IMG/VR virus record: IMGVR_UViG_3300028048_001169
Location: 161,071 to 225,070 of that record
Direction: 5' to 3' (one strand)
Length of the DNA stretch: 64,000 bases
Source: a virus
Taxonomy: Duplodnaviria; Caudoviricetes
Under the pieces are notes generated by a model, which made no database searches, was not told the DNA's origin, and saw nothing but the letters and a program-made list of their open reading frames with translations. Below are positions 30,561 to 56,590 of the stretch, in pieces (positions within the stretch are counted from its first letter, which is position 1; each line of letters opens with the position of its first letter). A program made the translations under genes and the position numbers.

Positions 30561-33500
30561 ATGGCTTATACGGTAAATGGTAAAGTGTATACCGATCATG
30601 CTTTGATGGATGAAATCGTATATAATTGTAAAATTATATTAGATGGAATCGTATTAAAGAATTCGAAATTAGCGAATTATTATGAAACAGATAAATCATT
30701 TAAGATGTCTGATCTTTTCATTGAGTGTACAAATGATTCTGTACGCCCTAGCTTTTTTCCGAAGGATATGCAATGGCAATATTACATTGATTTCGGTTAT
30801 ACACAAGACCAAGCAAGCTTCTATTGTGATAATCCCGAGAAAATACCAGCAGATGAATATGATAGAATATTAGCATATTTTAAACAGAGATTCTTAAGTG
30901 AATACGAAGAAGAAAATGATTACTATCGTATGCTGATTGGATTGCCTGCTTTTGATACATCTGATTATGATGTATATTTATCAAAAGAAGAATATGGTGA
31001 TATAACGAGTTTCGAGAATACTGGAGTGGAATTTGATTATGAAAAACCAATTCATGAGTATTCAACAAATGAAATTACAACACTGGATACACTCGGTATT
31101 ATTGATGCATTGAAAGATAAGTATATTACAAATAATAAGTATACAGCATCAAACTACCGTTATTTGAATTACTTAGGATCAAATAGAATTGATTTATATA
31201 CAGCTCGTACTGCTGAGAAATATGATATCTTATATATCCCACCAGTAGAGTATATTGTATTGAGTCGATTTCAAGAACTATTTGCTATCAATAGAGAAAT
31301 CTATCTTAGACGATTAGATCAACAAGCTTATAGTGTTAGCTCTGAGTATTATGATGAGATTATCATGTTTATGATTGTTTGTCAGACATTCAATGATATG
31401 ATTGTTGATACTCCTGAGTGGTATATCCGTAGAGATATTATTGATTTGCGATCAGCAAAATATTTCTTAGACTCTCAAGGAATCCAATTCTTTGAGGATA
31501 TTCCTCTGCGTTATCAGATTCTTATTGTTAAGAATATGAATAAATTAATTCGTTATAAATCAACGGATGTAGATATTCAAAATATCTTAGATATATTCTC
31601 TGCAGATGATGCTGTTGTTTATAACTATTATTTGTTAAAACGCTATAAGAAGACAGATAAAGAAAATACAATTATCCCTCAGCCACCTACTCCAGAAGAA
31701 TGGACAATGGCTGATGAATATGACTTTGGTGACGATGATGCTTCTGATATCATTAACAATACCGGTGATGGTGAAGGTAATGATATGGAGTATGATCCTA
31801 ATGGAGAAAAGAATGAGTTATTTGACTTTAACTTAGACGAAATTCCAAGTAAGATATTTAATTATGACTTTGGTAATCTTGATTCTGATGAAGTTGATGA
31901 TACTGAAGAAACAGATGAAAAAGAAGAGCAGGATCAATCTGATAAAGTTATCAAAGATTCAAATGATAATATCTATGACTTAGAGTTTATCAAAGTACCA
32001 ATCAGTGAAAACTATGATGACTATATCAAAGATCCTTTATATCGAGTTGATTATGATGCTGTAACAGCACAAGATAGATATTGGGATGGCCAAGATGTTC
32101 ATTCTTATATAAAGAATCAGCATCTAAACAGAGAGTTTACAATTGAAGATACAAAGTTTATGGGTATTGAATATAATACCTCTATGTCTGAGTATACTTA
32201 CGAACGTGAATATTATCTTGGTATGATTTTTAACAATAAGATCAAATTAGACGATATTATGATCTCTGTTCCTAGTATTAAGCAAAATGCTTACTTCAAT
32301 CTACGAAATATCTTCTTATTCTTATACTGTTGTAATGGATTATACTCAGGAGAAGACATCAATGTCAATAATCCACTGGATGCTCTTGAGAAGAGAACAG
32401 ATCCTAAACCAGATTTCAATCCATATGGTGATGAAGATGGTGGGCATCCATGGGATCGTGGTAATTACGATGGTCCTATCGATCCAGATGAACCTGTTCC
32501 TGTATGGGAATTACCATCTTTAGATTTCGGTGCATTAGAGAATGAAGATGATGATGTTGAATTATACTACGATTTTGGTGAAGTTGGTGATAGCAGTGGT
32601 GATATTGACGAGATATATAACTACGGTATCATGGAACGCCAGGATGAAAATGGTAATAAGATACCACCAGAAATTGATACTATTGCTACAGATATAGATT
32701 TTGGTGATCTGGATAATATCGATATATACGATGACGATGATGATAGTGTTAAGATTATCGTAGACTATGGTATCATGGAATATGAAGATGCATCTGAACC
32801 TGAAGAATATGACTACGGTCCAATGGATCTAGAATATTATGATGACGATGATGAGGATGACAAGATTGCTTATGATGATCCTGATTATCACTATAAGTAT
32901 GATGCTATCATTACAGTTAATGAAATCAATTATAAGACATTCTTAGGATGTTATTATATTGATCAAGAGACTGGCGAATATACTCAAATAACAGAAAATA
33001 ATGCTGCTGATTATATTGGTCAAACAATTACGATTCGTTATAAGTGGTATAATATATTACCATCTGAATTAACTGAAGATGCTGATGGACATGGTCCTTA
33101 TGGTCAAATTTGGGATATGTATCACGATGTCATCAATGGTGGTGATATTAAATACAGTGCAGAATTAACCAAAGCATCTTATTATGATTATATTCGTACA
33201 GATCATCCATATATCTTTAAGACAACCTATGGTAGAATCTATGGATTCAATATGAATGTCAACTTAGACAAATTAAGAGAAGATATCGGATTCAGACATT
33301 CTCAATTTGGATTTGAACGTGGTTATACTTTGGAAGATCTTGGTTGTGATACCTTTATCGTTCAGACAGAGTTCCATGATTTAAAAGAACTCTATAATGT
33401 CTATGTCAATAATACAAAGTGCTATAACAATTTAACCAAGTTAATTGAAGGTGGAAGTACTAGAGATGAAAAACGTGTTTACGATTACGTATTTAATTCT

Positions 33501-34985
33501 CTATTCACTACGGTTTATGATAGTGACTTCTATACATTAGCAAATGGTGATATGGCAAAGACCTATGATCAAGTATTAAAGAAGTACGATTATACTCTTT
33601 ATAGGAAATATGAAGAGTTAATGAGTGAACCAGATCCAGATACACGTACATTCAATGTAAGAAATATCTTGAATGATATTGTAGATACATTGAACTACTA
33701 TATCAGTGGTGATAATCTGAAGTACGTATTAACCTTTGTTTATACAAACTCTTTAGATGCAAAACTTCACTATATCTATGAGATGATGAATTTCTTTAAG
33801 TCTTGGAAAGTAAATTTCTTAGATTCTAAGGTTGTATATCGTGTTGATGATAAGAGTAACCATAAGATTACCTATGGTGATCAACTAGAAGAAATGAAAG
33901 TATCTTATCACGATACAGAGAATGTTCGTCTTAGAGATTCTATCTTTATCAAACCAATTTATACCTTTGAAGAGTATAAAGACTTGAGCAAGGATGATTT
34001 TAACCATAAAGCATCAGTTGTAGATATGGCATCTCATTATATGGATGATGATATCTTTGCAGACAGACTCATTGATTTCAATGATGACATTGAAGATGAT
34101 GAAGTATATGATGGTGGTAATATCACAGAACAATCTACTTTACCGGTATCAGAATTCAATGGTGGTAATTTAGGATATATCTATGAGAAGGAATTAAAAG
34201 ATCTTGATGGTGGAAAACCAGTTATTCGAGATAGTTTTAATGATTTCGATGGTAAAGGTCCTAATGAGCGTAGTGAAGAGTCTGAAGAGAACTCTACTGA
34301 AATTGAATGTGGTAGAGCAAACATTCGTTACATTCCATCTCATACAACAATTACAGAAGTTGATGAATTTAATAATGTAAAGGTTCATGCTCGTATAAAT
34401 CAATATCCAACCAATGGTTTAGAAAATCGTAAGAGTTGGGATGGAGAACCACCAGTATGGCCATTTAGAAATCTTGACTTCGGTGAGCTTCCAGAGAAGA
34501 ATTCTCCTAATACGGTTGTATATGAATTCGGTGATATGGAAGCTGAAAAAGATGGTATTGAGATTGCTGATGAAGATAACGGAGAAGTTCGTTTATATGA
34601 CTTTGGTGAAATAACGGAAACATCGGTTGATACAAACGATTCTGACGCATTGATAGCCGATTCTGGACTCTACTTCGATACTCGCGTTTATACACTAACG
34701 TCAGATATTGAAAACTCAATAGCTGCGAACGGTGTATATGCAAAAGAAACAAAAGATTTATTGATTGATCTATATAGAACGTTATTAATCTATACCGATA
34801 TCAACTTAGCAAGACGTATTATTACAGAGACTTATGAAAGTTATCTGGGACATGCAATTGAAGTTGTTACTAAATTGAGTACCACTATTTATGATACAAA
34901 TATAAAGAATACGGTTGATGAAAAATCGGATGATTTACGTAAATGGTTTAAGCAAAATGATCCTTATGCTTGGGGTACTTTTTAA
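30561..34985 (+). CDS. Large virion structural protein (baseplate-wedge-like scaffold) with acidic D(F/Y)G-motif inserts
   Basis: 1474 aa under a late promoter; NKLIRYKST wedge-like segment; 11 [DEN][FY]G motifs in acidic loops. Confidence 0.6.
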   Translation: MAYTVNGKVYTDHALMDEIVYNCKIILDGIVLKNSKLANYYETDKSFKMSDLFIECTNDSVRPSFFPKDMQWQYYIDFGYTQDQASFYCDNPEKIPADEYDRILAYFKQRFLSEYEEENDYYRMLIGLPAFDTSDYDVYLSKEEYGDITSFENTGVEFDYEKPIHEYSTNEITTLDTLGIIDALKDKYITNNKYTASNYRYLNYLGSNRIDLYTARTAEKYDILYIPPVEYIVLSRFQELFAINREIYLRRLDQQAYSVSSEYYDEIIMFMIVCQTFNDMIVDTPEWYIRRDIIDLRSAKYFLDSQGIQFFEDIPLRYQILIVKNMNKLIRYKSTDVDIQNILDIFSADDAVVYNYYLLKRYKKTDKENTIIPQPPTPEEWTMADEYDFGDDDASDIINNTGDGEGNDMEYDPNGEKNELFDFNLDEIPSKIFNYDFGNLDSDEVDDTEETDEKEEQDQSDKVIKDSNDNIYDLEFIKVPISENYDDYIKDPLYRVDYDAVTAQDRYWDGQDVHSYIKNQHLNREFTIEDTKFMGIEYNTSMSEYTYEREYYLGMIFNNKIKLDDIMISVPSIKQNAYFNLRNIFLFLYCCNGLYSGEDINVNNPLDALEKRTDPKPDFNPYGDEDGGHPWDRGNYDGPIDPDEPVPVWELPSLDFGALENEDDDVELYYDFGEVGDSSGDIDEIYNYGIMERQDENGNKIPPEIDTIATDIDFGDLDNIDIYDDDDDSVKIIVDYGIMEYEDASEPEEYDYGPMDLEYYDDDDEDDKIAYDDPDYHYKYDAIITVNEINYKTFLGCYYIDQETGEYTQITENNAADYIGQTITIRYKWYNILPSELTEDADGHGPYGQIWDMYHDVINGGDIKYSAELTKASYYDYIRTDHPYIFKTTYGRIYGFNMNVNLDKLREDIGFRHSQFGFERGYTLEDLGCDTFIVQTEFHDLKELYNVYVNNTKCYNNLTKLIEGGSTRDEKRVYDYVFNSLFTTVYDSDFYTLANGDMAKTYDQVLKKYDYTLYRKYEELMSEPDPDTRTFNVRNILNDIVDTLNYYISGDNLKYVLTFVYTNSLDAKLHYIYEMMNFFKSWKVNFLDSKVVYRVDDKSNHKITYGDQLEEMKVSYHDTENVRLRDSIFIKPIYTFEEYKDLSKDDFNHKASVVDMASHYMDDDIFADRLIDFNDDIEDDEVYDGGNITEQSTLPVSEFNGGNLGYIYEKELKDLDGGKPVIRDSFNDFDGKGPNERSEESEENSTEIECGRANIRYIPSHTTITEVDEFNNVKVHARINQYPTNGLENRKSWDGEPPVWPFRNLDFGELPEKNSPNTVVYEFGDMEAEKDGIEIADEDNGEVRLYDFGEITETSVDTNDSDALIADSGLYFDTRVYTLTSDIENSIAANGVYAKETKDLLIDLYRTLLIYTDINLARRIITETYESYLGHAIEVVTKLSTTIYDTNIKNTVDEKSDDLRKWFKQNDPYAWGTF

Positions 34986-34997
34986 CAGGAGGATACT

Positions 34998-35903: not shown

Positions 35904-35962
35904 GAATAATAAGGCTCCTACCATACAATGTAGGTAGGAGTCTTTATGAAAGGATTTGTTAT

Positions 35963-45739: not shown

Positions 45740-46117
45740 ATGGCTCAGTTTAAAGAACTGCTCGTATTCGGTACAACCAAAGTTCTTGATACCGTTTATG
45801 CTAAGAGATTCGTTGGTAGGTTCGAGGGTGAAATTAAGGGTAATGCTGAAACCGCTACAAAGGCTTCACAGGATGCTCTTGGACAGAATATTGCTAGCAC
45901 ATATGTATCTGGTATCAGTACAGAAGGTACAACTATCACTATCACAAAGGGTGATGGAACTACTTCTACCATAAATACTCAGGATACTCATGTAGAGCTT
46001 GTAGATGATCTGACAACAGATGATGCTACAAAGGCTCTTACAGCATCCCAGGGTGTTGAGCTGAAGTCTCAGATTGATACTCTGAAGTCAGCTAGTACTT
46101 GGGAGATTCTTGCTTAA
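45740..46117 (+). CDS. Small fibre-associated protein
   Basis: N-terminus paralogous to 47053..48147; KALTASQG repeat. Confidence 0.65.
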   Translation: MAQFKELLVFGTTKVLDTVYAKRFVGRFEGEIKGNAETATKASQDALGQNIASTYVSGISTEGTTITITKGDGTTSTINTQDTHVELVDDLTTDDATKALTASQGVELKSQIDTLKSASTWEILA

Positions 46118-46197: not shown

Positions 46198-46923
46198 ATG
46201 CCACTTATAGTAGATTCATCTGTTCGCCCTTCAGCTGCTACTGGGAGCGATGCAGGTGTTGTAAAATTATATTCTTCTGCTGGTTCTAATACGGATGGTG
46301 CAATGTCTCAGAATGCAACAACAACAGCTCTTAATAATAAACTTGATACATCATCAAGTAATTATATTAAGAACGTATCCATTACTGGACGTACTGTTAC
46401 ATTGACCTTCGGTGATGATTCAGAGCAGACAGTTATCACACAGGATAACGATACTACTTATGAAATTGGTACTGCAAATTCAGCAGGTGTAACAAAGTTA
46501 TACTCTGGTACAGGTACAAATGTAGATGGCACTATGACACAGAATGCTATCAATAATGAGATCAATACATTAAATACCAAGATTGAAGCTGTTGGTAGCT
46601 TTCATGTATCTGTAGTAAGTACTCTTCCAGAAGAAGGTGAGAGTAGCGTAATATACTTTGTACCTGAAGAGAATACTGGTGATAATCAACACTATATTGA
46701 ATACATCTGGATGGATGACGCTGGATATTTTGAAAGTATTGGTGTATCTAATACAGATCTTACCAATTACTATAATAAGTCTGAAATCGATACAAAGATA
46801 AGTAATATTACGAACGGTACAGTTACTGTTGGTAAAGCAACAACCGCTTCACAGATTAGCAATACAACAAATGCTGTAGCAGATGGTTGTGTTGTTGATT
46901 TTGGTGATATCGATGCCGAATAA
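46198..46923 (+). CDS. Fibre/adaptor protein with C-terminal DFG motif
   Basis: GSNTDGAMSQNA repeats, the shared LP..G....IYFVP..YIEYIW domain, and the terminus VVDFGDIDAE. Confidence 0.7.
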   Translation: MPLIVDSSVRPSAATGSDAGVVKLYSSAGSNTDGAMSQNATTTALNNKLDTSSSNYIKNVSITGRTVTLTFGDDSEQTVITQDNDTTYEIGTANSAGVTKLYSGTGTNVDGTMTQNAINNEINTLNTKIEAVGSFHVSVVSTLPEEGESSVIYFVPEENTGDNQHYIEYIWMDDAGYFESIGVSNTDLTNYYNKSEIDTKISNITNGTVTVGKATTASQISNTTNAVADGCVVDFGDIDAE

Positions 46924-47052: not shown

Positions 47053-48147
47053 ATGGCACAGTTAAAAGATTTAATTGTCTCTGGCTCGGCTAGAATAATC
47101 GGAACAATGTACGTGAAAGAATTACAAGTAGATGAATACAAAGGTACAGCAGAAAAAGCTACAAGTGATTCTTTAGGTAATGATCTTACTCGATATATTA
47201 ATGAATTGACTATTGATAATCGAACAATAACATTCAAACGAGGAGATGGTACAAGCGGTACAATCACCACTCCAGATTTTACTGTTAATGAAGCTACAGA
47301 TGCAACTACAGGTACTACAAAAGTATATAATACAACAGGTTCAAATATTGATGGAACAATGTCACAGTCAGCTATAACAACAGCATTAAATGCTAAATTA
47401 GATGATACTGACGTTTTGAATACAACTGGAGAGAGTACAACACGTACTATGAGCCAAAAGGCTATTACAGATGGATTAGGAACAAAGCTAAATGCAACTG
47501 CAACAGCAGTCGCTGCTACAAAAGATGGAAGTGATCAGAATATTGCATCTACATATGTAAAAGGTGTTGATATTAGTGGTCGCACCGTCACAATTACTAA
47601 GGGAGATGGTAGTTCATCTACGTTTGTTACACAAGACACTAATACAACGTATAACACAGCAACATCATCTACCGAAGGTTTGGTAAAGCTATATAATGAG
47701 AGTGGCTCTAATACAGATGGTGCAATGACACAGAGTGCAGTAAATTCTGCTATGTTAGCAATGCAACAGGATTTTGCTAATAGGATTGCTGCAATAGGAA
47801 GTCTTAATTTATCTATTGTTGAGCAACTTCCTGAGAGTGGTGCAAATGCAACTATCTATTTAGTTCCTGAGACGCCAGAACAAGTAAATGAGAAGTATAT
47901 TGAATATGTTTGGATTCCTGATGTAAATGAGGAGTCTGGTGAAGATCTTGGATATTTTGAGAAGATAGGTACAAGTTCAGCTGATCTTTCTAATTATTAT
48001 ACAAAAACAGAAGTTCAAAATCTATTAGCAACTACAACAGTAGCAAGTGCTACTACCGCTGCAACAGCAACTGCATTAGCATCAAGTACAAATAATGCTC
48101 TTGGTGCAAATGCACTGTTAGATTTTGGTGATTTGGATGATGATTAA
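47053..48147 (+). CDS. Fibre/adaptor protein with C-terminal DFG motif
   Basis: MSQKAIT-type repeats, the shared YIEYVW domain and the terminus LLDFGDLDDD; late motif at 46993-47004. Confidence 0.7.
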   Translation: MAQLKDLIVSGSARIIGTMYVKELQVDEYKGTAEKATSDSLGNDLTRYINELTIDNRTITFKRGDGTSGTITTPDFTVNEATDATTGTTKVYNTTGSNIDGTMSQSAITTALNAKLDDTDVLNTTGESTTRTMSQKAITDGLGTKLNATATAVAATKDGSDQNIASTYVKGVDISGRTVTITKGDGSSSTFVTQDTNTTYNTATSSTEGLVKLYNESGSNTDGAMTQSAVNSAMLAMQQDFANRIAAIGSLNLSIVEQLPESGANATIYLVPETPEQVNEKYIEYVWIPDVNEESGEDLGYFEKIGTSSADLSNYYTKTEVQNLLATTTVASATTAATATALASSTNNALGANALLDFGDLDDD

Positions 48148-48268: not shown

Positions 48269-49189
48269 ATGTCCAATACAGTATTTCAAAACATTGACTT
48301 TGGATTTCGTCGAGGATCTCATGATGGTTTAATGAACACATCAATTGAAAATGGTACGTTCAATGTATGTAAAGATACAGGTGAACTATACATTGATATT
48401 GATGGAGAACGTGTACCTACGAATGATATTATCATATATAATTCGGAAGCTGAGATTAGAGCATTATTAACTCCTGCTAAGAAAATCTATTATGCTAGAG
48501 ATACTTATAATCTCTTAACTTTCGAAACATCAGATCTTCAATGGAAAATTGTTGGTGGTGAGAATGTTAAATTCTCGCATTCTGCTGAAAAGGATAGCCT
48601 AGGAAATATTATTTCTGATCACTATCAATCAAAAGCAGAAGCTCAAAGTAATATTAATACAGTAAATGCATCTATTAATGATTTAAGAGCCATTGTATCA
48701 AATATCAATAGCTTTGAGATTAGTGTAGTAGAATCATTACCTGAAGAAGGTAAAGATCACATAATTTATTTTGTACATCAAAATGGTTCAGAAGATGAAG
48801 ATACACAGTATGATGAGTATATCTGGTTATTAGATCCTGGATATTTTGAGAAGATTGGTATTACAACATCAGATCTTGGTAATTATTATAATAAGACAGA
48901 AGTAGATAATCAAATCTCTAGTTTAAATTCAACCATTAGTAATAATCAGACTTTAAACAATCAGAAGTTTACAAACGTTAATTCAGAGATAGAAACACTA
49001 CGTTCTAATATTAATAATAGTGGATCTGATATTGAATATATCAATAGTGCACTTGCTGCTTTAAACGAGACTTATTACAATAAGACAGAGGTAGATGCAA
49101 TGTTTGAATCTTTCAAATCTTCAATGGGTATCACACAGACAGAATCAGGTGATACAGTTGTAGATTATGGTTCTATGGATGACGAATAA
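48269..49189 (+). CDS. Fibre/adaptor protein with C-terminal DYG motif
   Basis: N-terminus paralogous to the 40357 gene (DTGELYIDIDGERV), shared YDEYIW domain, terminus VVDYGSMDDE; late motif at 48203-48214. Confidence 0.7.
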   Translation: MSNTVFQNIDFGFRRGSHDGLMNTSIENGTFNVCKDTGELYIDIDGERVPTNDIIIYNSEAEIRALLTPAKKIYYARDTYNLLTFETSDLQWKIVGGENVKFSHSAEKDSLGNIISDHYQSKAEAQSNINTVNASINDLRAIVSNINSFEISVVESLPEEGKDHIIYFVHQNGSEDEDTQYDEYIWLLDPGYFEKIGITTSDLGNYYNKTEVDNQISSLNSTISNNQTLNNQKFTNVNSEIETLRSNINNSGSDIEYINSALAALNETYYNKTEVDAMFESFKSSMGITQTESGDTVVDYGSMDDE

Positions 49190-49203: not shown

Positions 49204-52200
49204 ATGAGTGATGATAATAAAACAACCTCCGAATCATTATGGGCTCCAGATTTAGATTTTGGTGATTTGAATGTAGAGGAGAATACTAATAACAATACCT
49301 TTGATTTTGGTGATGAGAATGTTGTTATAGATCCAGAGACAACACTGAATTATAATTACGGTGTTATGGAAGCAGAACCTGCAGAGGAACCTGCTGCTAC
49401 TGGTATTGTTATTGGATCAATTGTAGATTATATCCGTATGGATAAACATATCTACCAACCAGCAGTTATTGTAATCTCTATATCTACTGTAGAGGGTAAT
49501 TCCACTTATACATTATTCGATACAGATGATCGTATTACATATAACAAGATACCAAAATCTGATATTACTGATACAGGTAAAGTCATTGAAATTGATCCTA
49601 TATTAAAAGAGTTTGACTTAATAGCAGCACCAGATTATAGTAAGAAACCAATTGAAGATGGTGATGTAATTGATCAGGATTCTGGCGATGTAAATGCTAT
49701 CTTGATCGATGGTGATGAAAAGACTTTTGATAATCTTACGATTAATAAATCAGGAGATTCACAATCACAATCAGAAACATCTAACAATGCCATTACGGTA
49801 AAGAATGCTGGTTCTCTTACTCTAACCAATTCAAATATCACAACAGAGGCAAACTACACCAATGGTATTGTAAGTATTGGCAGAGACTCTGTGGTAAATG
49901 TATCAAATACCAACGTTACAACAACAGGTGATAACTCTAATGCATTATTAGCATTAGACTATGGTACAATTACAGCAAAATATTGTAATCTAAAAGTATC
50001 AGGTGAAGATTCCTTTGCAATCAAGGCAAAGAATTACGGTGAAATTACAGTTCAAGGTGGAACCATTGAAGCAAAAGATTCACCAATTGTTGTTGAGAGT
50101 AATGGTAAGGTTACAGTTAGTAATGTATCTATTGATCCTAAAGATAATCAAGATATCATTGATATAACCGATGGTACAATTGAGCTATCTAATGTATCAA
50201 TTACTCAGCCACCATTTACCACAATCGAAGAAGTTGTTAACTTCCAACCATTATATATTCATGAGAATATTGATGGTGCAGGTGCAACTGTTACTTTTAA
50301 TGGTAGTACGATTACAACAGAAAATACTGCATTTTATGTAGAGAATGCTGATGCTAATATTACAGTAAATGATTCTATAATCAATGCAAAATCCATTCTT
50401 ACTACAGTAGATGATAATGATTCAGATGATCGTACAACTGATGTTACTATTACCTTTAATAATTCTACAATTGAAGGTACATTTGATATTACTCCATTAA
50501 ATTTCTTAACGATTAATTTAAATGGTGGTATGTTTACCGGTAGCATTGATAATGATCATATGGAAGAAGAAGCTTCTATATCAGTTGTTATGGATGACAA
50601 TGCTCATTGGAAATTAACAGCTGATTGCTATATCAATGCTTTTACCCCACCAACAGATGTTGACAATATTGATCGTAATGGATTCAATATTTATATCAAT
50701 GGAGAACGTTGGATACAGCATCCACCTGTTATTGTTGATATTGATACTGGATATGATAGTAACGGTGTTCCTACAACAAGGATCATGAAAGTATTAAAGA
50801 CAGAAGATCTTCCTCCAATTACAGAACGTAAAGCATCTTATATTTACTTTGTATATGATAAGATGGAATTATATCTGTATCAGAGTTATTATGCAGATCC
50901 ATTCTGTATTGTAGAAACACTACCTGATAAAGATCATATTGTAGAGAATATGCTCTATATCACATTAGAAGGTAAGTTATATACTTATACAAGTTATACT
51001 ATAAAAGAGATTGGTCATGTAGAAGAACTTGTAGAGGGAGAAGGAGTATATGATCCAGCTCAGTTAGAGATTCTTCGTCAAGCAGGTACAACCTACTTTA
51101 TGAATGCTGAATCTAGATATCTAGATCCTCAGACTTGTACATTGCAGTTACCATATAAGAACGGTAATTACCAGTTATCTCTTAATCTGGCAAATGATCT
51201 TGTAATTGATGAGGATACGATTATTAAGTATAATCCAAATACAAATCAATTTGAGATTATGGGTAAAGAATATCAATATCCAGATGAATTAAAGAATATT
51301 AACAAATATAAAGGATTTGTTACTGATACAGTATCTACCTATATTGATGGATATACATTCCGTAGCGATGTTAATATTAGTAATTCTGAGGGTAATGGTG
51401 TAGAAGTTCGTCCAGATGGTTTATATGTTGATGTATCTTTATTCGCTTCACAAGAACGGTATGAAAAACTGATTGTAGCTTTTGATCAGTATAAATCAAT
51501 CATCGATCATTATATCATACAATTACGTGATGGTATTAAAGCAGCAACTGGTGCTGTTACTGGAGAAACAATTTCTCAGATGATATTAGAAGCTTTGGAG
51601 AATTATAAAGACGATATTGATCTCATGGTAGAAGGATATGAAAATCTTTATAATCGTATCGCTATCATGGAAGATGAGGTGGATAATTTCGACGTTAAGT
51701 TAGACTTAGCAGAAATTGACATAAAGAATTTTGTTAATGAAACAAACTCTGCGTGGAGTTCGTTTACTAATGATAATCCTTATGTTCCATCAGAAGATAC
51801 ACAAGATGAATTAACTTTAAAAGGTTCTGTAATGGCAGAGTATCGTTCTAGTATTATAAAAATTCGAACTGATGATCCTGGTATACTTTATGATTATCAT
51901 ACTGGATTATCAACAACAGAATCCGAGATGATGGATAGAGTGGTATCATCTGTTGTATCGAAAGGACAATCACTCAATGGTTATAGTGAGACTTATTCTA
52001 GTCGTTGGGAGTTACCAGAGACTGGTATTGCAGGAATTACTTACTATGTAATCAAACACGATAGTGAGAATCCTTTATTCAGAATCTACTCATGGAATGG
52101 TGAAGAATATGTATTAGGTACAGATTTGTATCCAGATTCAAAAGATCCTAAACCTACACCACCAGAACCACCTGTAGATCCGACTCCAGATAATCCAGAA

Positions 52201-52290
52201 AACAATACTACAACAAATCCGGAGCCAGAATCTCCTGACGAAACACCTTCAGAAGATACAACTCCTACGGATAATACAGATACACCTTGA
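49204..52290 (+). CDS. Large virion protein with central right-handed beta-helix
   Basis: NSNITT/NTNVTT/GGTIE beta-helix repeats, an N-terminal DFG triplet and a Pro/Thr/Asp-rich tail. Confidence 0.65.
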   Translation: MSDDNKTTSESLWAPDLDFGDLNVEENTNNNTFDFGDENVVIDPETTLNYNYGVMEAEPAEEPAATGIVIGSIVDYIRMDKHIYQPAVIVISISTVEGNSTYTLFDTDDRITYNKIPKSDITDTGKVIEIDPILKEFDLIAAPDYSKKPIEDGDVIDQDSGDVNAILIDGDEKTFDNLTINKSGDSQSQSETSNNAITVKNAGSLTLTNSNITTEANYTNGIVSIGRDSVVNVSNTNVTTTGDNSNALLALDYGTITAKYCNLKVSGEDSFAIKAKNYGEITVQGGTIEAKDSPIVVESNGKVTVSNVSIDPKDNQDIIDITDGTIELSNVSITQPPFTTIEEVVNFQPLYIHENIDGAGATVTFNGSTITTENTAFYVENADANITVNDSIINAKSILTTVDDNDSDDRTTDVTITFNNSTIEGTFDITPLNFLTINLNGGMFTGSIDNDHMEEEASISVVMDDNAHWKLTADCYINAFTPPTDVDNIDRNGFNIYINGERWIQHPPVIVDIDTGYDSNGVPTTRIMKVLKTEDLPPITERKASYIYFVYDKMELYLYQSYYADPFCIVETLPDKDHIVENMLYITLEGKLYTYTSYTIKEIGHVEELVEGEGVYDPAQLEILRQAGTTYFMNAESRYLDPQTCTLQLPYKNGNYQLSLNLANDLVIDEDTIIKYNPNTNQFEIMGKEYQYPDELKNINKYKGFVTDTVSTYIDGYTFRSDVNISNSEGNGVEVRPDGLYVDVSLFASQERYEKLIVAFDQYKSIIDHYIIQLRDGIKAATGAVTGETISQMILEALENYKDDIDLMVEGYENLYNRIAIMEDEVDNFDVKLDLAEIDIKNFVNETNSAWSSFTNDNPYVPSEDTQDELTLKGSVMAEYRSSIIKIRTDDPGILYDYHTGLSTTESEMMDRVVSSVVSKGQSLNGYSETYSSRWELPETGIAGITYYVIKHDSENPLFRIYSWNGEEYVLGTDLYPDSKDPKPTPPEPPVDPTPDNPENNTTTNPEPESPDETPSEDTTPTDNTDTP

Positions 52291-52309
52291 TGGAAAGGAG
52301 AATATATAA

Positions 52310-52912
52310 ATGGGCTATAAGAAATTTCGTCCAGCAAGAGGAACAAAATATGAATGGGAAACGATCAATCCTGTCTTAGTAGAAGGTGAATGGGTTGTTG
52401 AAGTTCCAGATTCAGGTGTTGGTACTGGACTTAGTAAGTTTAAGATTGGTGATGGAACTAACAAATATGTTGATCTTCCATATGCATTTGATGGTACTGC
52501 TGCTGCAAGTTTTAATGGTGGTAATGCTGTTAATTATAACTTACTTCAGTTACGTGGTACTAGTGCTGCTAACTGGAGACAGGTTAATCCAGTTTTAGCA
52601 CAAAATGAAATTGGTTACGACGAAACCAATAGATCGTTTAAGATCGGTGATGGTAGCACTCGTTGGAATGATTTATTTTATATCAAAGCAGATTCTTTTG
52701 TAGTAGAAGATTATGATTTTGGTGATATGGACGAGGAAGCCATTGAAGCAACAGAGGAAGATGTATTAGATAATTCTGGATATCCAGATAATATTTTGGA
52801 TAATAATACTTCTAGCGATACTCCATCTAATAATAATAACTCTTCCTCTGAGGGTAATAATACATCATCTACTCCTGAGAGTAATGATAATACCTCTACT
52901 GAGGGTAACTAA
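52310..52912 (+). CDS. Tandem Mtd_N/hyaluronidase-N-like domain protein
   Basis: Two copies of RGT..W...NPVL..GE......FKIGDG....DL.Y, plus YDFGDMD. Confidence 0.78.
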   Translation: MGYKKFRPARGTKYEWETINPVLVEGEWVVEVPDSGVGTGLSKFKIGDGTNKYVDLPYAFDGTAAASFNGGNAVNYNLLQLRGTSAANWRQVNPVLAQNEIGYDETNRSFKIGDGSTRWNDLFYIKADSFVVEDYDFGDMDEEAIEATEEDVLDNSGYPDNILDNNTSSDTPSNNNNSSSEGNNTSSTPESNDNTSTEGN

Positions 52913-53170
52913 TTTCGTATGATTACGATACCATAAAATTCGTATGAGACGAAATTAGAAAACACTTGTGTAATTCTAAGAATATAATAAAACCCTAGGA
53001 TAGCATTATCCTAGGGTATCTTTTATTTTTAAAATCAGAACAAATATATAATGATTGTATAGATTGTGGTACTCAAGTACCGTCTCTTATTCTTTGTACA
53101 TCGGTAATAACGATCTATACAATATCTAATAAGAATAAAGAGATTATTCCAAATATAAAGGAGGACGTTT

Positions 53171-53569
53171 ATGTCAAAGATTTTTTGCCCTAAAAGAGCC
53201 AAATCTACAACTGTAGGTGTAGGAGGAGCAAAAGCAAATGTTGTTCTCGAACTTGGTGAGGCTTTATTTGTCGAGCCACCTGAGGGAGCAGGAAAAGGTA
53301 TCGGTGCAATCAAGATTGGTGATGGTTCTACTGCTGTTTCTAATCTTCCTATGTATATTGATGGTAATATCAGTAAAGTTGGTGTTACTGTTACAACCGA
53401 TACTTCTAGTACTGCTACTACAGCTGCTGGTAATGTTGTTACTGGTAAGACAGTTAGCTCTATTGTTGGAAGCTTAAAGCAGGCTGAAGCATTAAATGCT
53501 GCTAATATCGCTACAGCACAGAGTACAGTTAACAGTATCAAGACAAATTACCCAGGATGGGTTAGCTAA
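53171..53569 (+). CDS. Mtd_N-like domain protein without a receptor-binding domain
   Basis: VVLELGE...IKIGDGSTAVSNLPMY; late motif at 53040-53051. Confidence 0.72.
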   Translation: MSKIFCPKRAKSTTVGVGGAKANVVLELGEALFVEPPEGAGKGIGAIKIGDGSTAVSNLPMYIDGNISKVGVTVTTDTSSTATTAAGNVVTGKTVSSIVGSLKQAEALNAANIATAQSTVNSIKTNYPGWVS

Positions 53570-53590
53570 TATCAAGAGGAGGATGATATT

Positions 53591-54094
53591 ATGTCAAAGA
53601 TTTTTAAACCAAGAAGAGTTAAGTATTCATCTATAGCAGAAGGTGGATCTAAAGCTAATGTTGTATTAGCAAACGGTGAAACTGTATTTGTAATGCCAGA
53701 TACTGGAGCAGGTACAGGACTCGGTTCCATTATCATGGGTGATGGTACGACTGCTATTTCCAATCTTCCATATATGATTAACGGTAAGATATCAGAAAAT
53801 AAAATTGAAGTAGTAACCAACAGTAAAACTACCGCTAATGCAGCTTTAACTGATGTCATTAGTGAAAATACTTTAGGAACCGTTATAGGTGCCTTAAAGC
53901 AGGCATCTTCTCTGAATGCTTCCGCTGCTACAAATTTAAATAATGAAAGAAATACACTGCAGACCAAGTTGAATAGTGGACTCCAGCAGATTTATAATGC
54001 ATGTGTAGAAGCAGGGACAACTCCATCCAGCGCTTCTGTTAATGACATTAATGCTGCTTTGGAAGAAATATTTGGGGGGGGGGTACACGGCTGA
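53591..54094 (+). CDS. Receptor-binding protein 1, N-terminal Mtd_N/stalk part; frameshifted at G10
   Basis: Paralogous to the N-terminus of 55337..56590; terminates just after the G10 tract. Confidence 0.78.
   Translation: MSKIFKPRRVKYSSIAEGGSKANVVLANGETVFVMPDTGAGTGLGSIIMGDGTTAISNLPYMINGKISENKIEVVTNSKTTANAALTDVISENTLGTVIGALKQASSLNASAATNLNNERNTLQTKLNSGLQQIYNACVEAGTTPSSASVNDINAALEEIFGGGVHG
54074..54083 (+). repeat. Poly-G tract (G10) at a domain junction
   Basis: G9 or G12 would fuse EEIFGGG to YTAEQL in frame. Confidence 0.85.
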
Positions 54095-54815
54095 ACAGTT
54101 AAACACAAATAGTACTGGTACTAATAAATTACTGGCAACGTTCAATTCTTTATCAGATGCACAAGCATTTGTTGAAAAGTATATCAAGTCAAATGGTAAA
54201 TTTGATAAGAGTATACGTGTTGGTGATAAAATCCAGATCAATGATGGTACTTATAATAAAGAATGGATCATAGTAGGATTTAATACACAGAGCAGAGCTA
54301 CATCACAACCACATATTAGTTTAATTCCAACATATTCATTGGGTGATTATAAAATGAATAGCAGTGATACTAATAGTGGTGGATATGCTGGTTCAGCAGC
54401 ATTTACGACGTGTAATAGTATGGCGAATAACTTAGCAAGAGTATTAGGAGATTACTTATTAACTAGAAACGAATTACTTGGTAATTCTGGTTATTCATCA
54501 TACACAACAGCATCAAAATCAGTTAGAGTAAATCTGTTGAATGAAATTCAAGTATTCGGTAGTAGAACTTATTCTGTAGCTAGTGAAGATGGATACGACA
54601 CTACACAGTTACCTGGATTCAGATTAAATAAAGTATCTAAAACTATTACCTCGAACAATAATTGGTGGTGGCTGCGCTCTGCTGGTAGTGGCTACAGCCG
54701 CGACTTCTGCTATATCTACAACGGCAGTCCCTCCCACACCAGCGCCAACTACAACACCTTTGCTTTTCGCCCGCTTATTACGATTGGACGTCCTGAGAAC
54801 GGGGGGGTCCAGTAA
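54084..54815 (+). CDS. Receptor-binding protein 1, DUF6273-like (C-type lectin fold) domain, DGR-target-like
   Basis: WIIVGFN, NSGGYAGS and WWWLRSA...FRPLITIG; no RBS of its own. Confidence 0.75.
   Translation, partial: YTAEQLNTNSTGTNKLLATFNSLSDAQAFVEKYIKSNGKFDKSIRVGDKIQINDGTYNKEWIIVGFNTQSRATSQPHISLIPTYSLGDYKMNSSDTNSGGYAGSAAFTTCNSMANNLARVLGDYLLTRNELLGNSGYSSYTTASKSVRVNLLNEIQVFGSRTYSVASEDGYDTTQLPGFRLNKVSKTITSNNNWWWLRSAGSGYSRDFCYIYNGSPSHTSANYNTFAFRPLITIGRPENGGVQ
54663..54776 (+). other. DGR-like variable region VR1
   Basis: Of the 29 codons from after WLRSA up to the Arg of RP, 22 end in C and all end in a pyrimidine, unlike the rest of the genome. Confidence 0.65.
54801..54807 (+). repeat. 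Poly-G tract (G7) at a domain junction
   Basis: G8 would read ENGGGPVTQQFTFDALTGQ into the downstream domain. Confidence 0.85.
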
Positions 54816-55237
54816 CTCAGCAGTTCACGTTTGATGCATTGACTGGTCAAACTTCTAGTAAATTAACACGTTCACTTGATGTTTCATTAGCTGGTTATAC
54901 TCCTGTATCAGTGCAAGATGTAGAGTTTACTCCTGCAACTTCAGCATATTGCCATCCCACTGGTCCTTCTGAGAGAGTTGAAGATGCTTATGGCAATGAT
55001 GTTACAATATATGACACTGTTGGTGATCTAAATTCAGAGGAGTCTGCTTCTAGTATAAGTTTATCTAGTAATACGATTACTTATACATCACAAGGAGCTA
55101 AGCATAATACAGCACATTATGCAACATGGCATTATGGTCATAATAATCCCGGTAATACTTTTGGTTATAGTATATCTGACGATACTTATAACTATGGTAA
55201 ACGTGTTGTTTCAGTTACTTATCGTAAGAATTCATAA
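54808..55237 (+). CDS. Receptor-binding protein 1, C-terminal extension domain (in frame only with G8)
   Basis: Paralogous to 56557..57083 with conserved ends and a divergent middle; no RBS. Confidence 0.65.
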
Positions 55238-55279
55238 ATTCTATTGTTGTTTATATATCGTTTATATAGTAGTCTATTT
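55184..55279 (+). repeat. Direct repeat with about 57030..57125 (cassette duplication)
   Basis: Identical TYNYGKRVVSVTYRKNS coding end plus downstream sequence in both cassettes. Confidence 0.8.
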
Positions 55280-55336
55280 AGTCTATATATTCTCTATTTA
55301 GACTACTATTATCATTTTAAAAGAAAGGAAATCTTT

Positions 55337-56590
55337 ATGGCTAAGATTTTTAAACCAAGAAGAGTAAAAGCTTCTTCTATCGCACAAGGTGGCTCTAAAG
55401 CTAATGTTGTATTAGCAAATGGAGAAGTGGTTTTTGTAATGCCTTCTACTGGATCTGGTACTGGTATCGGTGGAATTATTATGGGAGATGGTAGAACAGC
55501 TATCTCTAATCTTCCATATATGATTAACGGTAATGTATCCGATGGTAAAGTTACTGTTACTACTGATATTAGTAATAATCCTATTAGTAATGTCGTATCA
55601 AATAAGACATTAGGAGATATTACAGGATCATTGAAGGCTAGTAGTATTAAGAATGCTACAACAATTAGTAATATTGATGTAACTTCATTAAGCAATGGCT
55701 TTAATGGTATTAATAGCATTGTAAATAAATTATCCGGATATGGTGCAACACCAGTGAATAATAGTCCTAGTGCTATATGTGATGCTATATTAACAGGTGC
55801 TGTTAAATGGGTAAGTGCAGATGTACTTAATAATGATTATACTAATGCTTATAATGATGATGGTAGGCTAATTGCAACATTTAGCAGTGTCAACGATACA
55901 AGAAATTTCATCAAATCCAACGTATCAACAAAAGGATTCAATGAAAAAGTTAAACCTGGTGATAAGATCCAAATCAATGATGGTACATATAATAAAGAAT
56001 GGATTATTGTAGGATTTAATACACAGAACAGAGCTACATCGCAGCCACATATTAGTTTAATTCCAACAGATTCGTTAGGTGATTTTGTAATGAATAGCAC
56101 TGCTACTAATAGTGGTGGATATGTTGGTTCAGAAGCATTTGCAATATGTAATAATATAGCTAATAACTTAGCAAGAGTATTAGGAGATTATCTGTTAACC
56201 AGGAATGAATTACTTGGTAATTCTGGATATCCATCATACACAACAACATCAAAATCAGTTAGAGTAAATCTGCTAAATGAAATGCAAATACGTGGTAGAA
56301 GAGAATACTCTGTAGATAGTGAAGATGGATACGATACCACACAATTGCCTGGTTTTATAATAAATTATAGATATAGACGTCCTTACGATCGCATTCTTTG
56401 TTGGCTGCGCTCTGCTTCGAAAGACAGCAACGACTCCTTCTGCATTGGCTACGACTATACTCTGTTATCCGTCAACGAAGCCAACAAAATCAAAAACATC
56501 GACACCTACGAAATTGGTTTTTGCCCGCTTATTACAATTGGTCTTCCGGGGGGGGGCAGCAGTAACAGCAACTCGACAGTTCACGTTTGA
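55337..56590 (+). CDS. Receptor-binding protein 2: Mtd_N + stalk + DUF6273-like domain
   Basis: Start at ATG 55337 after AAAGGA; long near-identity to RBP1; CWLRSA...FCPLITIG. Confidence 0.8.
   Translation: MAKIFKPRRVKASSIAQGGSKANVVLANGEVVFVMPSTGSGTGIGGIIMGDGRTAISNLPYMINGNVSDGKVTVTTDISNNPISNVVSNKTLGDITGSLKASSIKNATTISNIDVTSLSNGFNGINSIVNKLSGYGATPVNNSPSAICDAILTGAVKWVSADVLNNDYTNAYNDDGRLIATFSSVNDTRNFIKSNVSTKGFNEKVKPGDKIQINDGTYNKEWIIVGFNTQNRATSQPHISLIPTDSLGDFVMNSTATNSGGYVGSEAFAICNNIANNLARVLGDYLLTRNELLGNSGYPSYTTTSKSVRVNLLNEMQIRGRREYSVDSEDGYDTTQLPGFIINYRYRRPYDRILCWLRSASKDSNDSFCIGYDYTLLSVNEANKIKNIDTYEIGFCPLITIGLPGGGSSNSNSTVHV
56402..56530 (+). other. DGR-like variable region VR2
   Basis: Shares the anchors TGGCTGCGCTCTGCT, TTCTGC, GCCAAC and GCCCGCTT with VR1; 22 of 36 intervening codons are NNC. 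Confidence 0.6.
56548..56556 (+). repeat. Poly-G tract (G9) at a domain junction
   Basis: G8 or G11 would read LPGG(G)AAVTATRQFTFDELTGQ into the downstream domain. Confidence 0.85.

What the first reader, a model, noticed from the sequence alone, without database searches (positions are those of the whole stretch)
30561..56590. D(F/Y)G short-motif 'plug-and-socket' system linking the baseplate scaffold and fibres
Seen: the 1474-aa protein has 11 [DEN][FY]G motifs in acidic inserts, often as Trp-preceded triplets (VWELPSLDFG..YDFG..YNYGIME; VWPFRNLDFG..YEFG..YDFG), plus several [DN]GG motifs. The same triplet opens 49204 (LWAPDLDFG..FDFG..YNYGVME). Three consecutive fibre genes end in a single copy (VVDFGDIDAE, LLDFGDLDDD, VVDYGSMDDE), and 52310 has YDFGDMD. 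At least five Mtd_N-like domains lie nearby (52310 twice, 53171, 53591, 55337; degenerate versions in 40357 and 48269). Inference: three motifs, from one tandem triplet or from the tips of a trimeric fibre, dock one trimeric Mtd_N-like domain, building a branched, cellulosome-like adhesin tree.
Basis: partly seen in the sequence, partly recalled or inferred. Interest (0 to 1): 0.7.

Follow-up and report, generated by a model that had tools for sequence, protein, structure and literature searches.

The report
Peptide plugs joining baseplate and fibres
A giant phage from a gut or rumen metagenome repeats a short acidic peptide (hydrophobic-Asp-Phe/Tyr-Gly-acidic) in floppy loops of a baseplate wedge protein and at the ends of its fibre proteins, most likely as standard connectors for clipping fibres together, though the partner they clip into has not been shown.

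Summary
The motif Φ-[DN]-[FY]-G-x-Φ-[DE] occurs 11 times in three acidic inserts of the 1474-aa protein. Two further matches lie in its folded core and do not count. It also occurs as a triplet at the N-terminus of 49204, 6-8 residues before the stop of three consecutive fibre genes, and after the second Mtd_N domain of 52310.

The 1474-aa protein belongs to a family whose AlphaFold model matches phiKZ gp128, the alpha-rich baseplate wedge subunit. That subunit is the T4 gp7 equivalent by inference from the Goslar paper. So "baseplate scaffold" is right. The inserts are predicted disordered. In 120 homologues the motif count runs from 0 to 23 and rises with insert length, and spacing peaks at 16-21 residues.

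The 52310 family (two Mtd_N domains plus ΦDFGDED) is widespread: 30 of the 37 best cluster representatives keep the motif at the same place.

Docking onto Mtd_N trimers is not shown. It is supported indirectly by gene order, by genome-level co-occurrence, and by natural fusions: the motif is kept in 4 of 4 fusions that retain a third Mtd_N and lost in 8 of 8 fusions made straight to a shaft. Against it, a monomer model shows no docking, and Mtd_N fibres of other phages lack the motif.

Verdict: a real, apparently undescribed peptide connector system whose socket is unproven. Other notes of this scan cover this genome, but none that I retrieved covers this motif.

The parts
30561..34985 (+). 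1474-aa baseplate wedge protein (phiKZ gp128 / T4 gp7 type) with acidic motif-bearing inserts
   Evidence: Family of more than 120 homologues. The AF2 model of homologue P0086 matches 9xqs_C = PHIKZ128: Foldseek E 8.4e-11, VIA Z 10.7, 547 aa aligned. AR9 gp259 'virion structural protein' is a sequence relative.
31686..31970 (+). Insert 1 (residues 376-470), 37% Asp+Glu, with motifs at 388 and 436
32406..32930 (+). Insert 2 (residues 616-790), 34% Asp+Glu, with two motif triplets: 655/671/687 (Trp-preceded) and 713/735/751
   Evidence: The equivalent insert of P0086 has pLDDT < 50.
34011..34280 (+). Conserved [DN]GG repeat stretch, period 16 (1184/1200/1216/1230)
   Evidence: Conserved in 19-26 of 32 homologues. 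The equivalent region of the model has pLDDT 30-45.
34446..34655 (+). Insert 3 (residues 1296-1365), triplet 1306/1322/1347 opening with PPVWPFRNLDFG
   Evidence: The EPP[VI]WPxRN[LIV]DFG opening recurs in homologues P0002-P0008.
46894..46920 (+). C-terminal plug VDFGDIDAE of the 241-aa fibre protein (gene 46198-46923)
   Evidence: Unchanged in 12 relatives that are 89-99% identical.
48118..48144 (+). C-terminal plug LDFGDLDDD of the 364-aa fibre protein (gene 47053-48147)
   Evidence: Shares phrog_24103 (read here as a foldon-like domain) with 46198 and 48269.
49160..49186 (+). C-terminal plug VDYGSMDDE of the 306-aa protein (gene 48269-49189)
   Evidence: All 8 relatives with this type of N-terminus carry a D[FY]G motif in the C-terminal region, within 16 residues of the end in 7 and 87 from the end in G001.
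49237..49374 (+). N-terminal Trp-preceded motif triplet (18/34/51) of the 1028-aa protein (gene 49204-52290)
   Evidence: The C-terminal module of this protein is conserved in relatives, which lack the triplet.
52310..52912 (+). Adaptor: Mtd_N (residues 1-62), Mtd_N (76-126), YDFGDMDEE (134-143), a second conserved piece GYPDNILDN, then a Ser/Asn-rich tail
   Evidence: Pfam PF18454. AF2 gives both domains pLDDT > 90 and the motif region 56-60. Matches the HylP and Mtd N-terminal domains. Family conservation of the motif is 30 of 37.
53171..53569 (+). 132-aa protein with an N-terminal Mtd_N-like domain (KIFCPKR type); candidate socket
   Evidence: Family HMM E 2.9e-10; phrog_27786 tail spike.
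53591..54094 (+). 167-aa protein with an N-terminal Mtd_N-like domain (KIFKPRR type) and a stalk; candidate socket
   Evidence: Family HMM E 3.6e-13. Its counterpart follows the adaptor gene in G001, G004 and L072-L078; in G002 a 764-aa Mtd_N fibre comes between.
55337..56590 (+). Receptor-binding protein: N-terminal Mtd_N-like domain, stalk and a C-terminal part like the DUF6273 protein 54042; candidate socket, with no plug
   Evidence: Family HMM E 4e-12. Its C-terminal part is closely similar to 54042-54815, which hits DUF6273.

Best explanation
The D[FY]G motif is a short, acidic, intrinsically disordered connector peptide (a 'plug'). A clade of AR9-like jumbo phages from gut and rumen metagenomes uses it to join the parts of the baseplate periphery and fibre network without covalent bonds.

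The wedge protein, which is phiKZ gp128-like and present once per wedge, carries the plug as tandem arrays in loops inserted into its folded core. Fibre segments and a small adaptor made of two Mtd_N domains carry one copy at or near the C-terminus, so a trimer presents three. Terminal receptor-binding proteins carry none.

The most likely socket is the N-terminal Mtd_N-type beta-prism trimer, with its basic K-I-F-K-P-R-R arm, of the next fibre or receptor-binding protein. Three plugs, from one tandem triplet or from three chain ends, would then seat one trimer.

Shown here: the motif, its enrichment, its conservation, its disorder, and the identity of its carriers. Inferred: that it is a binding peptide, and what it binds.
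For: Motif and enrichment.

Wedge identity: AF2 plus Foldseek E 8.4e-11 and VIA Z 10.7 against 9xqs_C, which is PHIKZ128. In phiKZ, gp128 is the alpha-rich subunit of the wedge heterotrimer and touches the outer, fibre-bearing periphery (PMC13250141). In Goslar the corresponding single-copy wedge subunit is equated with T4 gp7 (PMC13742148); the gp128 = gp7 equivalence is my inference from the two papers.

Disorder: the insert has pLDDT < 50 in the wedge model and 56-60 in 52310. Inserts are 29-37% acidic against 16-17% in the core.

Conservation typical of a linear motif: homologues of about 1040-1100 aa have 0-2 copies, while longer ones have up to 23. Linkers vary, and spacing peaks at 16-21 residues.

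Adaptor family: D136 is at least 90% conserved. D[FY]G sits right after the second Mtd_N in 30 of 37 representatives.

Relatives: adaptors end ΦDFGD[IL]D[DE]x about 7-8 residues before the stop. The next gene, 65-230 nt on, starts with an Mtd_N-like domain in every family locus with a free adaptor (L072-L078). Other fibre-like proteins there also end in the tail.

Polarity: the wedge has plugs only, intermediates have an N-terminal Mtd_N(-like) domain plus a C-terminal plug, and proteins with a lectin-like head have Mtd_N only (same calls).

Fusions: the motif is kept in 4 of 4 fusions with a third Mtd_N, and lost or degenerate in 8 of 8 fusions made directly to a shaft.

Genome level: four records with the Mtd_N adaptor module all have plugs. 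Three records of the same wedge family without Mtd_N have no tails or arrays.
Against: No binding was tested or modelled, because only monomer prediction was available. In the monomer model of 52310 the motif does not pack on either Mtd_N domain.

Mtd_N-type fibres in 37 more distant phage loci have almost no motif: 2 in 166,045 aa. The pairing is therefore clade-specific at best.

G004 has plug-tailed adaptors but no plug on its wedge. G003 has one motif in its wedge and a doublet elsewhere, with no Mtd_N hit.

In most loci the gene after a 48269-type plug protein is not an Mtd_N protein.

The exact tail DFGDEDE-stop also ends four small non-fibre ORFs from five IMG/VR records, and none of the five extra records from that scan has a Pfam Mtd_N hit.

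The genome and fusion counts are small and not phylogenetically independent.
Confidence: 0.5

Rival explanations
1. A self-assembling threefold clasp. Three copies of the motif, from three chains of a trimer or from a tandem triplet in one chain, fold together, perhaps around Ca2+ or Mg2+ held by the Asp and Glu side chains. The result is a small cap that closes fibre ends. On the wedge it would form pseudo-trimeric pedestals. No separate socket is needed.
For: Single copies sit on presumed trimers and triplets on presumed monomers, with a regular 16-21-residue spacing. The flanks are strongly acidic. The motif is lost when a trimeric shaft is fused directly, which would make a cap unnecessary. 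A related period-16 [DN]GG array lies in the same protein.
Against: AF2 does not fold the triplet or the DGG array, even though the DGG stretch is present in most of the 61 aligned sequences (pLDDT 30-50). The motif is kept in 4 of 4 fusions where a trimeric Mtd_N and stalk follow, so a cap should be dispensable. No Pfam Ca-binding repeat is detected. This reading does not explain doublets, or arrays of up to 23 copies.
Confidence: 0.2
2. A plug for a different socket. The peptide binds a repeated subunit of the peripheral baseplate, for example a T4 gp8 / phiKZ gp139-like spoke protein, or the 49204-type module, or the lectin-like heads. Wedge arrays would then staple the spoke, and fibre tails would hang on it.
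For: In phiKZ and Goslar the gp7-like wedge protein extends outward to a filament of five gp8-like dimers that carries the fibre platform, and flexible N-terminal extensions make repeated contacts there (PMC13250141; PMC13742148 section 11). Arrays of 11-23 copies fit a many-subunit target better than a few trimers. The 48269-type plug gene is followed directly by the 49204-type module gene in G000, G002 and G004, and in L073 and L074 with only a glycosyltransferase-like gene between them.
Against: No gp8/gp139 homologue was identified in the window. This reading does not explain the joint loss of motif and Mtd_N in fusions. It does not explain the adaptor-to-Mtd_N gene order either.
Confidence: 0.17
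3. Not a structural joint. The peptide would be a general acidic tail recognised by an assembly chaperone or another factor. Alternatively it is a charged, flexible spacer whose aromatic-Gly core is kept for solubility or cation binding.
For: DFGDEDE-stop tails also end small ORFs with no fibre features in other phage records. No partner has been shown.
Against: Within this clade the motif is confined to baseplate and fibre genes: 16 of 20 strict hits lie in six proteins. It keeps a fixed position after Mtd_N across at least 30 clusters at 50% identity. It co-varies with the architecture of the neighbouring genes.
Confidence: 0.1
4. A compositional accident of Asp/Glu/Gly/aromatic-rich low-complexity sequence.
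For: The inserts are 29-37% acidic, which raises the chance rate of D-x-G words.
Against: Shuffles that preserve composition reach 13 copies in 0 of 2000 trials. The motif recurs at aligned positions in distant homologues and in unrelated proteins.
Confidence: 0.03

Closest known systems
phiKZ gp128 / Goslar gp35 / T4 gp7 baseplate wedge subunit
   Same: The core fold matches over about 550 residues. It is the alpha-rich, single-copy member of the wedge heterotrimer and the part that reaches outward to the fibre-bearing periphery (PMC13250141; PMC13742148).
   Different: Sequence identity is only 10-13%. The window protein is twice as long. It carries three acidic disordered inserts with 11 D[FY]G motifs, a [DN]GG array and an extra C-terminal helical domain, none of which is described for gp128.
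Branched receptor-binding complexes of Ackermannviridae (CBA120 TSP1-4), G7C gp63.1/gp66 and RaK2-like phages
   Same: Several receptor-binding proteins hang on one another and on the baseplate through dedicated attachment modules, and adaptor proteins create branch points (PMC8825819, PMC11414711, PMC10253068).
   Different: Those joints are folded domain-to-domain contacts (T4 gp10-like/XD domains and N-terminal anchor domains). Here the proposed joint is a roughly 7-residue disordered peptide, repeated in tandem on the wedge itself. No gp10-like domain was detected by Pfam or PHROGs.
Cohesin-dockerin assembly of cellulosomes (an analogy only)
   Same: A scaffold bears many copies of one connector, allowing modular, multivalent attachment of different subunits.
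   Different: A dockerin is a folded domain of about 70 residues with a duplicated EF-hand, and cohesin is a beta-sandwich. Neither is present here (no Pfam hit). The polarity is also reversed: here the scaffold carries the peptide.
Mtd_N-type N-terminal domain of phage fibres (Bordetella phage BPP-1 Mtd; streptococcal phage HylP)
   Same: The two domains of 52310 superpose on the HylP N-terminus at 1.3 Å over 48 residues with 33% identity, and on Mtd 1yu0. In those proteins the domain is the trimeric end near the virion.
   Different: What this domain binds on a virion is not known for any phage, as far as I know. A tandem pair followed by a conserved acidic peptide does not appear to have been described.

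Membership tests
phiKZ gp128 / T4 gp7-type baseplate wedge protein | Fold similarity to a solved wedge subunit over most of the chain | tested here: met
   Model of family member P0086 against 9xqs_C (= PHIKZ128): Foldseek E 8.4e-11, probability 1.0; VIA Z 10.7, 547 of 610 residues aligned, rmsd 10.9 Å. The next five VIA rows are all baseplate chains, at Z 4.6-7.7.
phiKZ gp128 / T4 gp7-type baseplate wedge protein | Detectable sequence homology to gp128 or gp7 | tested here: not met
   A profile of 33 homologues against all PDB sequences gave no hit at E <= 1. tblastn finds only the AR9/PBS1, phiR1-37 and Fusobacterium phage 'virion structural protein'.
phiKZ gp128 / T4 gp7-type baseplate wedge protein | One copy per wedge, forming a heterotrimer with two gp6/gp87-like chains | not testable with these tools
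   Needs virion proteomics or cryo-EM.
Mtd_N (PF18454) | Pfam score above the gathering threshold | tested here: met
   52310 residues 80-117 score 48.1 bits against a cut-off of 26.3. The six-frame genome search finds the same single place.
Mtd_N (PF18454) | Structural match to the Mtd/HylP N-terminal domain | tested here: met
   AF2 domains have pLDDT > 90. HylP 2yvv/2c3f rmsd 1.3 Å over 48 aa; Mtd 1yu0-1yu4 probability 1.0.
Mtd_N (PF18454) | Membership of 53171, 53591 and 55337 | tested here: met
   Below Pfam reporting, but HMMs built from the 52310 family give E 2.9e-10, 3.6e-13 and 4.3e-12.
Mtd_N (PF18454) | Membership of the 48269 and 40357 N-termini ('degenerate versions') | tested here: inconclusive
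   HMM E 0.19-0.82 for both. For 48269-type N-termini, hhalign gives probability 3.6%, E 0.012, with the alignment in register (RG...N..L..GE).
Short linear motif (SLiM) as usually defined | A short conserved core in a disordered region with variable flanks, recurring in unrelated proteins | tested here: met
   pLDDT < 50 and 56-60. Motif kept while linkers vary. Found in the wedge, foldon-like fibres, 48269-type proteins, the adaptor and 49204.
Short linear motif (SLiM) as usually defined | A defined folded binding partner | not testable with these tools
   No multimer prediction or experiment was available. Only indirect evidence from gene order and fusions.
Dockerin / EF-hand / RTX-type Ca-binding repeats | Match to the family profile or its Dx[DN]xDG / GGxGxD consensus | tested here: not met
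   No Pfam family at E <= 0.01 on any carrier. The motif's Φ-D-[FY]-G-x-Φ-[DE] does not fit those consensus loops, by my own reading of the sequences. This does not exclude metal binding as such.
T4 gp10-like branching domain (CBA120/G7C type) | Presence of a gp10-like/XD domain in an adaptor protein | tested here: inconclusive
   No such Pfam or PHROG hit in 19 proteins between 30561 and 56590. Structure was not examined for most of them.

The most novel reading that the evidence does not exclude
These phages build their host-recognition apparatus from standard parts joined by a peptide-in-socket joint. Tandem triplets in disordered loops of the monomeric wedge protein mimic the three chain ends of a trimeric fibre. 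Any protein with an N-terminal Mtd_N-type trimer can therefore be seated on the wedge, on an adaptor, or on the end of another fibre. That would give a cellulosome-like, freely re-wirable adhesin tree whose valency evolves simply by gaining or losing 16-residue repeats: 0 to 23 per wedge protein among relatives.
Probability: 0.35. Interest if true: 0.8.

Novelty: new variant of a known kind. Interest (0 to 1): 0.62.

Why it matters
How extra fibres and receptor-binding proteins are attached to the very large baseplates of jumbo phages is largely unresolved. Even the 2026 phiKZ and Goslar structures leave much of the periphery unmodelled.

A 7-residue connector that can be copied, moved and counted in sequence would have three uses:
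- It would give a readable code for which proteins sit on which.
- It would explain how these phages change the number and kind of receptor-binding proteins so quickly.
- It would offer a simple handle for laboratory studies of fibre attachment.

It would also be, as far as my literature searches show, the first linear-motif-based joint described in a phage tail.

Tried and rejected
- Megablast of 19 kb against 50,697 phage records: no match.
- The search for related loci with the single 1474-aa and 1028-aa proteins: nothing. With 48269, only distant hits to its shared phrog_24103 (foldon-like) region, none carrying the motif in a comparable way.
The metagenome contigs of P0002-P0120 could not be read, so relatives came from IMG/VR only.
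- Profile search of the wedge family against PDB sequences: none. phmmer of 34998, 38023 and 40357 against PDB: nothing useful. No gp8/gp139-like spoke protein was identified.
- ESM Atlas: only a weak lead to baseplate wedge families (0.81), later borne out by the fold search.
- AF2 monomer of 52310 was a test for docking in cis. The motif stays at pLDDT 56-60, so there is no support either way for a trimer.
- Homologues of 46198: only near-identical copies, so this gives no independent test of its tail.
- A scan of IMG/VR for DFGDEDE followed by a stop gave 8 loci, which I estimate to be above chance. Five of those loci end four unrelated small ORFs. I did not follow these further.
- Considered and dropped: a prohead-protease cleavage site (the pattern does not fit, and the carriers are tail proteins); an autocleaving C-terminal chaperone (only 6-8 residues follow the motif); the kinase 'DFG' motif (irrelevant).
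- Plug-to-socket counts per genome looked balanced in some records (G004 2:2), but they depend on arbitrary choices. I do not rely on them.


Full report
**Setting.** The window is the last 64 kb of a 225,070-bp virus record with 33% G+C. Its virion RNA polymerase beta subunit is closest to those of Bacillus phages AR9, PBS1 and BpSp, at about 34% identity. Earlier notes of this scan call it a cattle-rumen AR9-like jumbo phage. I confirmed the AR9 kinship but did not test the source. The finding spans a late structural block: a 1474-aa protein, a virion RNAP subunit, several unknowns, and then a run of fibre-like genes.

**Is the motif there?** Yes.
- [DEN][FY]G occurs 13 times in the 1474-aa protein. 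The mean in composition-preserving shuffles is 2.8, and none of 2000 shuffles reaches 13.
- Two of the 13 (residues 77 and 144) lie in the conserved folded core and should be discounted. The other 11 lie in three inserts that are 29-37% Asp+Glu, against 16-17% in the rest of the protein.
With that pattern the whole genome (234 ORFs, 68,325 aa) has 20 hits, and 16 fall in six proteins: 30561, 46198, 47053, 48269, 49204 and 52310.
- The triplets, the Trp 6-8 residues before the first copy, the three C-terminal copies and the copy in 52310 are all as quoted.
- The [DN]GG motifs form a period-16 quartet at 1184/1200/1216/1230. This array is the older feature: it is present in 19-26 of 32 homologues, including ones without any D[FY]G.

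**What is the 1474-aa protein?**
- It has more than 120 homologues in gut and rumen metagenomes. None has a name or a Pfam domain.
- I folded a full-length 1120-aa member, P0086, with 61 aligned sequences. The helical core is confident (pLDDT 80-92). The motif insert (residues 513-590) and the DGG stretch (836-1028) are below 50.
- Foldseek gives one strong hit, 9xqs chain C (E 8.4e-11, probability 1.0). VIA-align gives Z 10.7 with 547 of 610 residues aligned. The next five VIA rows are all small baseplate chains from phages A-1(L), P1 and phiCD508 and from a Streptomyces contractile injection system.
- Chain C is PHIKZ128. In phiKZ, gp128 is the alpha-rich subunit of the wedge heterotrimer (one gp128, two gp87), and it contacts the first gp139 dimer of the outer, fibre-bearing periphery (PMC13250141).
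- In Goslar the single-copy wedge subunit, gp35, is equated with T4 gp7 (PMC13742148, section 11). That gp128 corresponds to gp35 and gp7 is my inference from the two papers.
- Sequence searches alone do not show this. The assignment rests on a model of a relative that is 38% identical in the alignment.

**How does the motif behave in the wedge family?**
- Homologues of about 1040-1100 aa have 0-2 copies. Longer ones have more, up to 23 in a 2393-aa protein.
- The copies sit in inserts at the same three or four places. Each insert opens with W-x(4-7)-D-F-G; EPPVWPMRNLDFG recurs in many.
- Triplets often follow a fixed order...LDFG.E, then ...VYDFGYQN.ID, then ...YDYGEIT..S.
- The distance between successive copies peaks sharply at 16-21 residues.
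- A conserved core, free linkers, copy-number change and predicted disorder are the usual signature of a short linear binding motif.

**The other carriers.**
- 46198, 47053 and 48269 share fibre repeats and the family phrog_24103, which from the sequence I read as a foldon-like domain. They are almost certainly trimers. Each ends with the motif 6-8 residues before the stop.
- 52310 consists of two Mtd_N domains followed by YDFGDMDEE. Pfam gives 48.1 bits, AF2 gives pLDDT > 90, and the HylP N-terminus superposes at 1.3 Å.
- An exhaustive HMMER search with 52310 found 7668 relatives of the Mtd_N domain. The 37 best (E <= 1e-30) share the whole architecture. Thirty of them have D[FY]G directly after the second Mtd_N, and two more have DCG. 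The Asp is at least 90% conserved in the alignment.
- A second conserved piece, DYPDxILPExW[DN], follows about 25 residues later.

**Related genomes.**
- I read eight IMG/VR records of the wedge family in full and eight loci of the adaptor family.
- The fibre module keeps its gene order across them. It runs: a 39637-like gene; an Mtd_N protein with SAYxxWL repeats; a 48269-type protein; sometimes glycosyltransferase-like genes; the C-terminal module of 49204; the 2xMtd_N adaptor; then a protein that starts with a KIFKPRRG-type Mtd_N-like domain and usually ends in a head.
- All eight 48269-type proteins (59 to 1381 aa) carry a D[FY]G motif in the C-terminal region. It is within 16 residues of the end in seven, and 87 residues from the end in G001.
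- Free adaptors mostly end ΦDFGD[IL]D[DE]x, about 7-8 residues before the stop.
- The gene after a free adaptor, 65-230 nt on, begins with an Mtd_N-like domain in every such locus (L072-L078).
- In 37 loci of more distant Mtd_N fibres there are 2 motifs in 166,045 aa. The family loci have 15 in 32,893 aa.
- At genome level, four records with the adaptor module (G000, G001, G002, G004) all have plugs. Three without any Mtd_N-like hit (G003, which is complete, and the fragments G005 and G012) have no tails or arrays. G011 is cut inside the module.

Three indirect results favour it.
- Polarity. The most proximal protein, the wedge, has plugs and no Mtd_N. Intermediates have an N-terminal Mtd_N(-like) domain and a C-terminal plug. 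Proteins with a lectin-like head have the N-terminal domain and no plug. In HylP and Mtd this domain is the virion-proximal end (established knowledge).
- Gene order, as described above.
- Natural fusions. In four representatives the adaptor is fused to the next protein with its Mtd_N kept, and the motif is retained 10-25 residues before it (P0138, P0146, P0153, P0165). In eight the adaptor is fused straight to a shaft without that Mtd_N, and the motif is absent or degenerate; examples are YDNKSE and YDNMTE in P0166 and P0167, and L079 8013-9740. Motif and partner domain are thus kept or lost together, as expected for the two halves of a non-covalent joint.

The acidic plug and the basic K-I-F-K-P-R-R arm are also complementary in charge. 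That is inference only.

**Evidence against, or missing.**
- The monomer model of 52310 leaves the motif undocked. This is a weak test, since the domain works as a trimer.
- Mtd_N is common without the motif.
- G004 has plugs on its adaptors but none on its wedge.
- G003 has a few motifs without Mtd_N.
- In most loci the 48269-type plug gene is followed by the 49204-type module, not by an Mtd_N gene.
- DFGDEDE-stop also ends small unrelated ORFs elsewhere.
- All counts are small, and the genomes are related to one another.
- The '48269 and 40357 are degenerate Mtd_N' idea is not supported statistically.

**Rivals.**
- A threefold self-associating, possibly metal-binding clasp explains the 'one per trimer, three per monomer' rule without any socket. 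It fits poorly with the four fusions that keep the motif, and with AF2's failure to fold the arrays.
- A different socket, such as a repeated spoke subunit as in phiKZ and Goslar, fits arrays of 11-23 copies well. It has no candidate protein here.
- A chaperone tag or a plain spacer is less likely, given the fixed position of the motif and its co-variation with architecture.
- Chance is excluded.

**Novelty.** Branched, modular receptor-binding complexes are known (CBA120, G7C, RaK2; PMC8825819, PMC11414711, PMC10253068). Their joints are folded domains. Full-text searches for linear motifs in baseplates or fibres, and for Mtd_N attachment, found nothing comparable. I therefore class this as a new variant of a known kind: real at the level of sequence and comparative genomics, with a plausible but untested mechanism.

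**Confidence.**
- That the motif is a protein-protein connector of the baseplate and fibre network: about 0.65-0.7.
- That its socket is the Mtd_N-type trimer: about 0.4-0.45.

Noticed in passing
window 34011-34280 (wedge residues 1151-1240): A period-16 array of [DN]GG (YDGGN, FNGGN, LDGGK, FDGKG) is conserved in most wedge homologues, including those without any D[FY]G motif. AF2 leaves it unfolded. It may be the ancestral repeat from which the D[FY]G arrays arose, or a second connector.
   Followed up: partly
window 52709-52830 (52310 residues 134-175) and alignment A5: The adaptor family has a second conserved linear piece, about 25 residues after the motif: (D/E)-Y-P-D-x-I-L-P-E-x-W-(D/N). 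In the window it is GYPDNILDN. It is followed by a variable acidic or Ser/Asn-rich tail.
   Followed up: no
L073 5725-6906; L074 5763-6920; L078 2574-7064 (four copies); G001 79100-80185: Genes with the RPFFSIIIPCYNS opening, which from memory I take to be typical of family-2 glycosyltransferases, sit inside the fibre modules of relatives, up to four in tandem. No ORF with this opening was found in the window's own genome. They may glycosylate fibres or modify the host surface.
   Followed up: no
L065 512-814; L067 8411-8677; L070 5484-5744; L071 592-864: Small ORFs of 86-100 aa in other IMG/VR phage records, with no fibre features, end in exactly DFGDEDE-stop. I estimate this to be above chance (about 0.2-0.4 expected). 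The tail may be a more general phage peptide signal.
   Followed up: partly
window 45740-45830 and 47053-47143: 45740 and 47053 share a roughly 30-residue N-terminus (MAQFKELLVFG... and MAQLKDLIVSG...). 46198, 47053 and 48269 share the C-terminal phrog_24103 (foldon-like) region plus tail. The fibre genes look assembled from exchangeable end modules.
   Followed up: no
window 53035-53541 (-) versus 53171-53569 (+): A 168-aa ORF on the minus strand overlaps the plus-strand gene 53171, which has a clear Mtd_N-like domain. The minus-strand ORF is probably spurious.
   Followed up: partly
L079 9862-15332: A run of at least five small paralogous ORFs (118-146 aa) all end in ...FTTTDGKVHTADNLNY, directly after the receptor-binding genes of a related phage. 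They may be a cassette of exchangeable tip or chaperone proteins.
   Followed up: no
window -4960..-4529 (G000 156110-156541), just upstream of the window: Another small protein (143 aa) with an N-terminal Mtd_N-like domain (HMM E 1.7e-14) is encoded far from the fibre module.
   Followed up: no
G002 228737-230251: A 504-aa protein far from the fibre module of a relative carries four D[FY]G-type motifs in an acidic stretch (residues 214-349). Its role is unknown.
   Followed up: no
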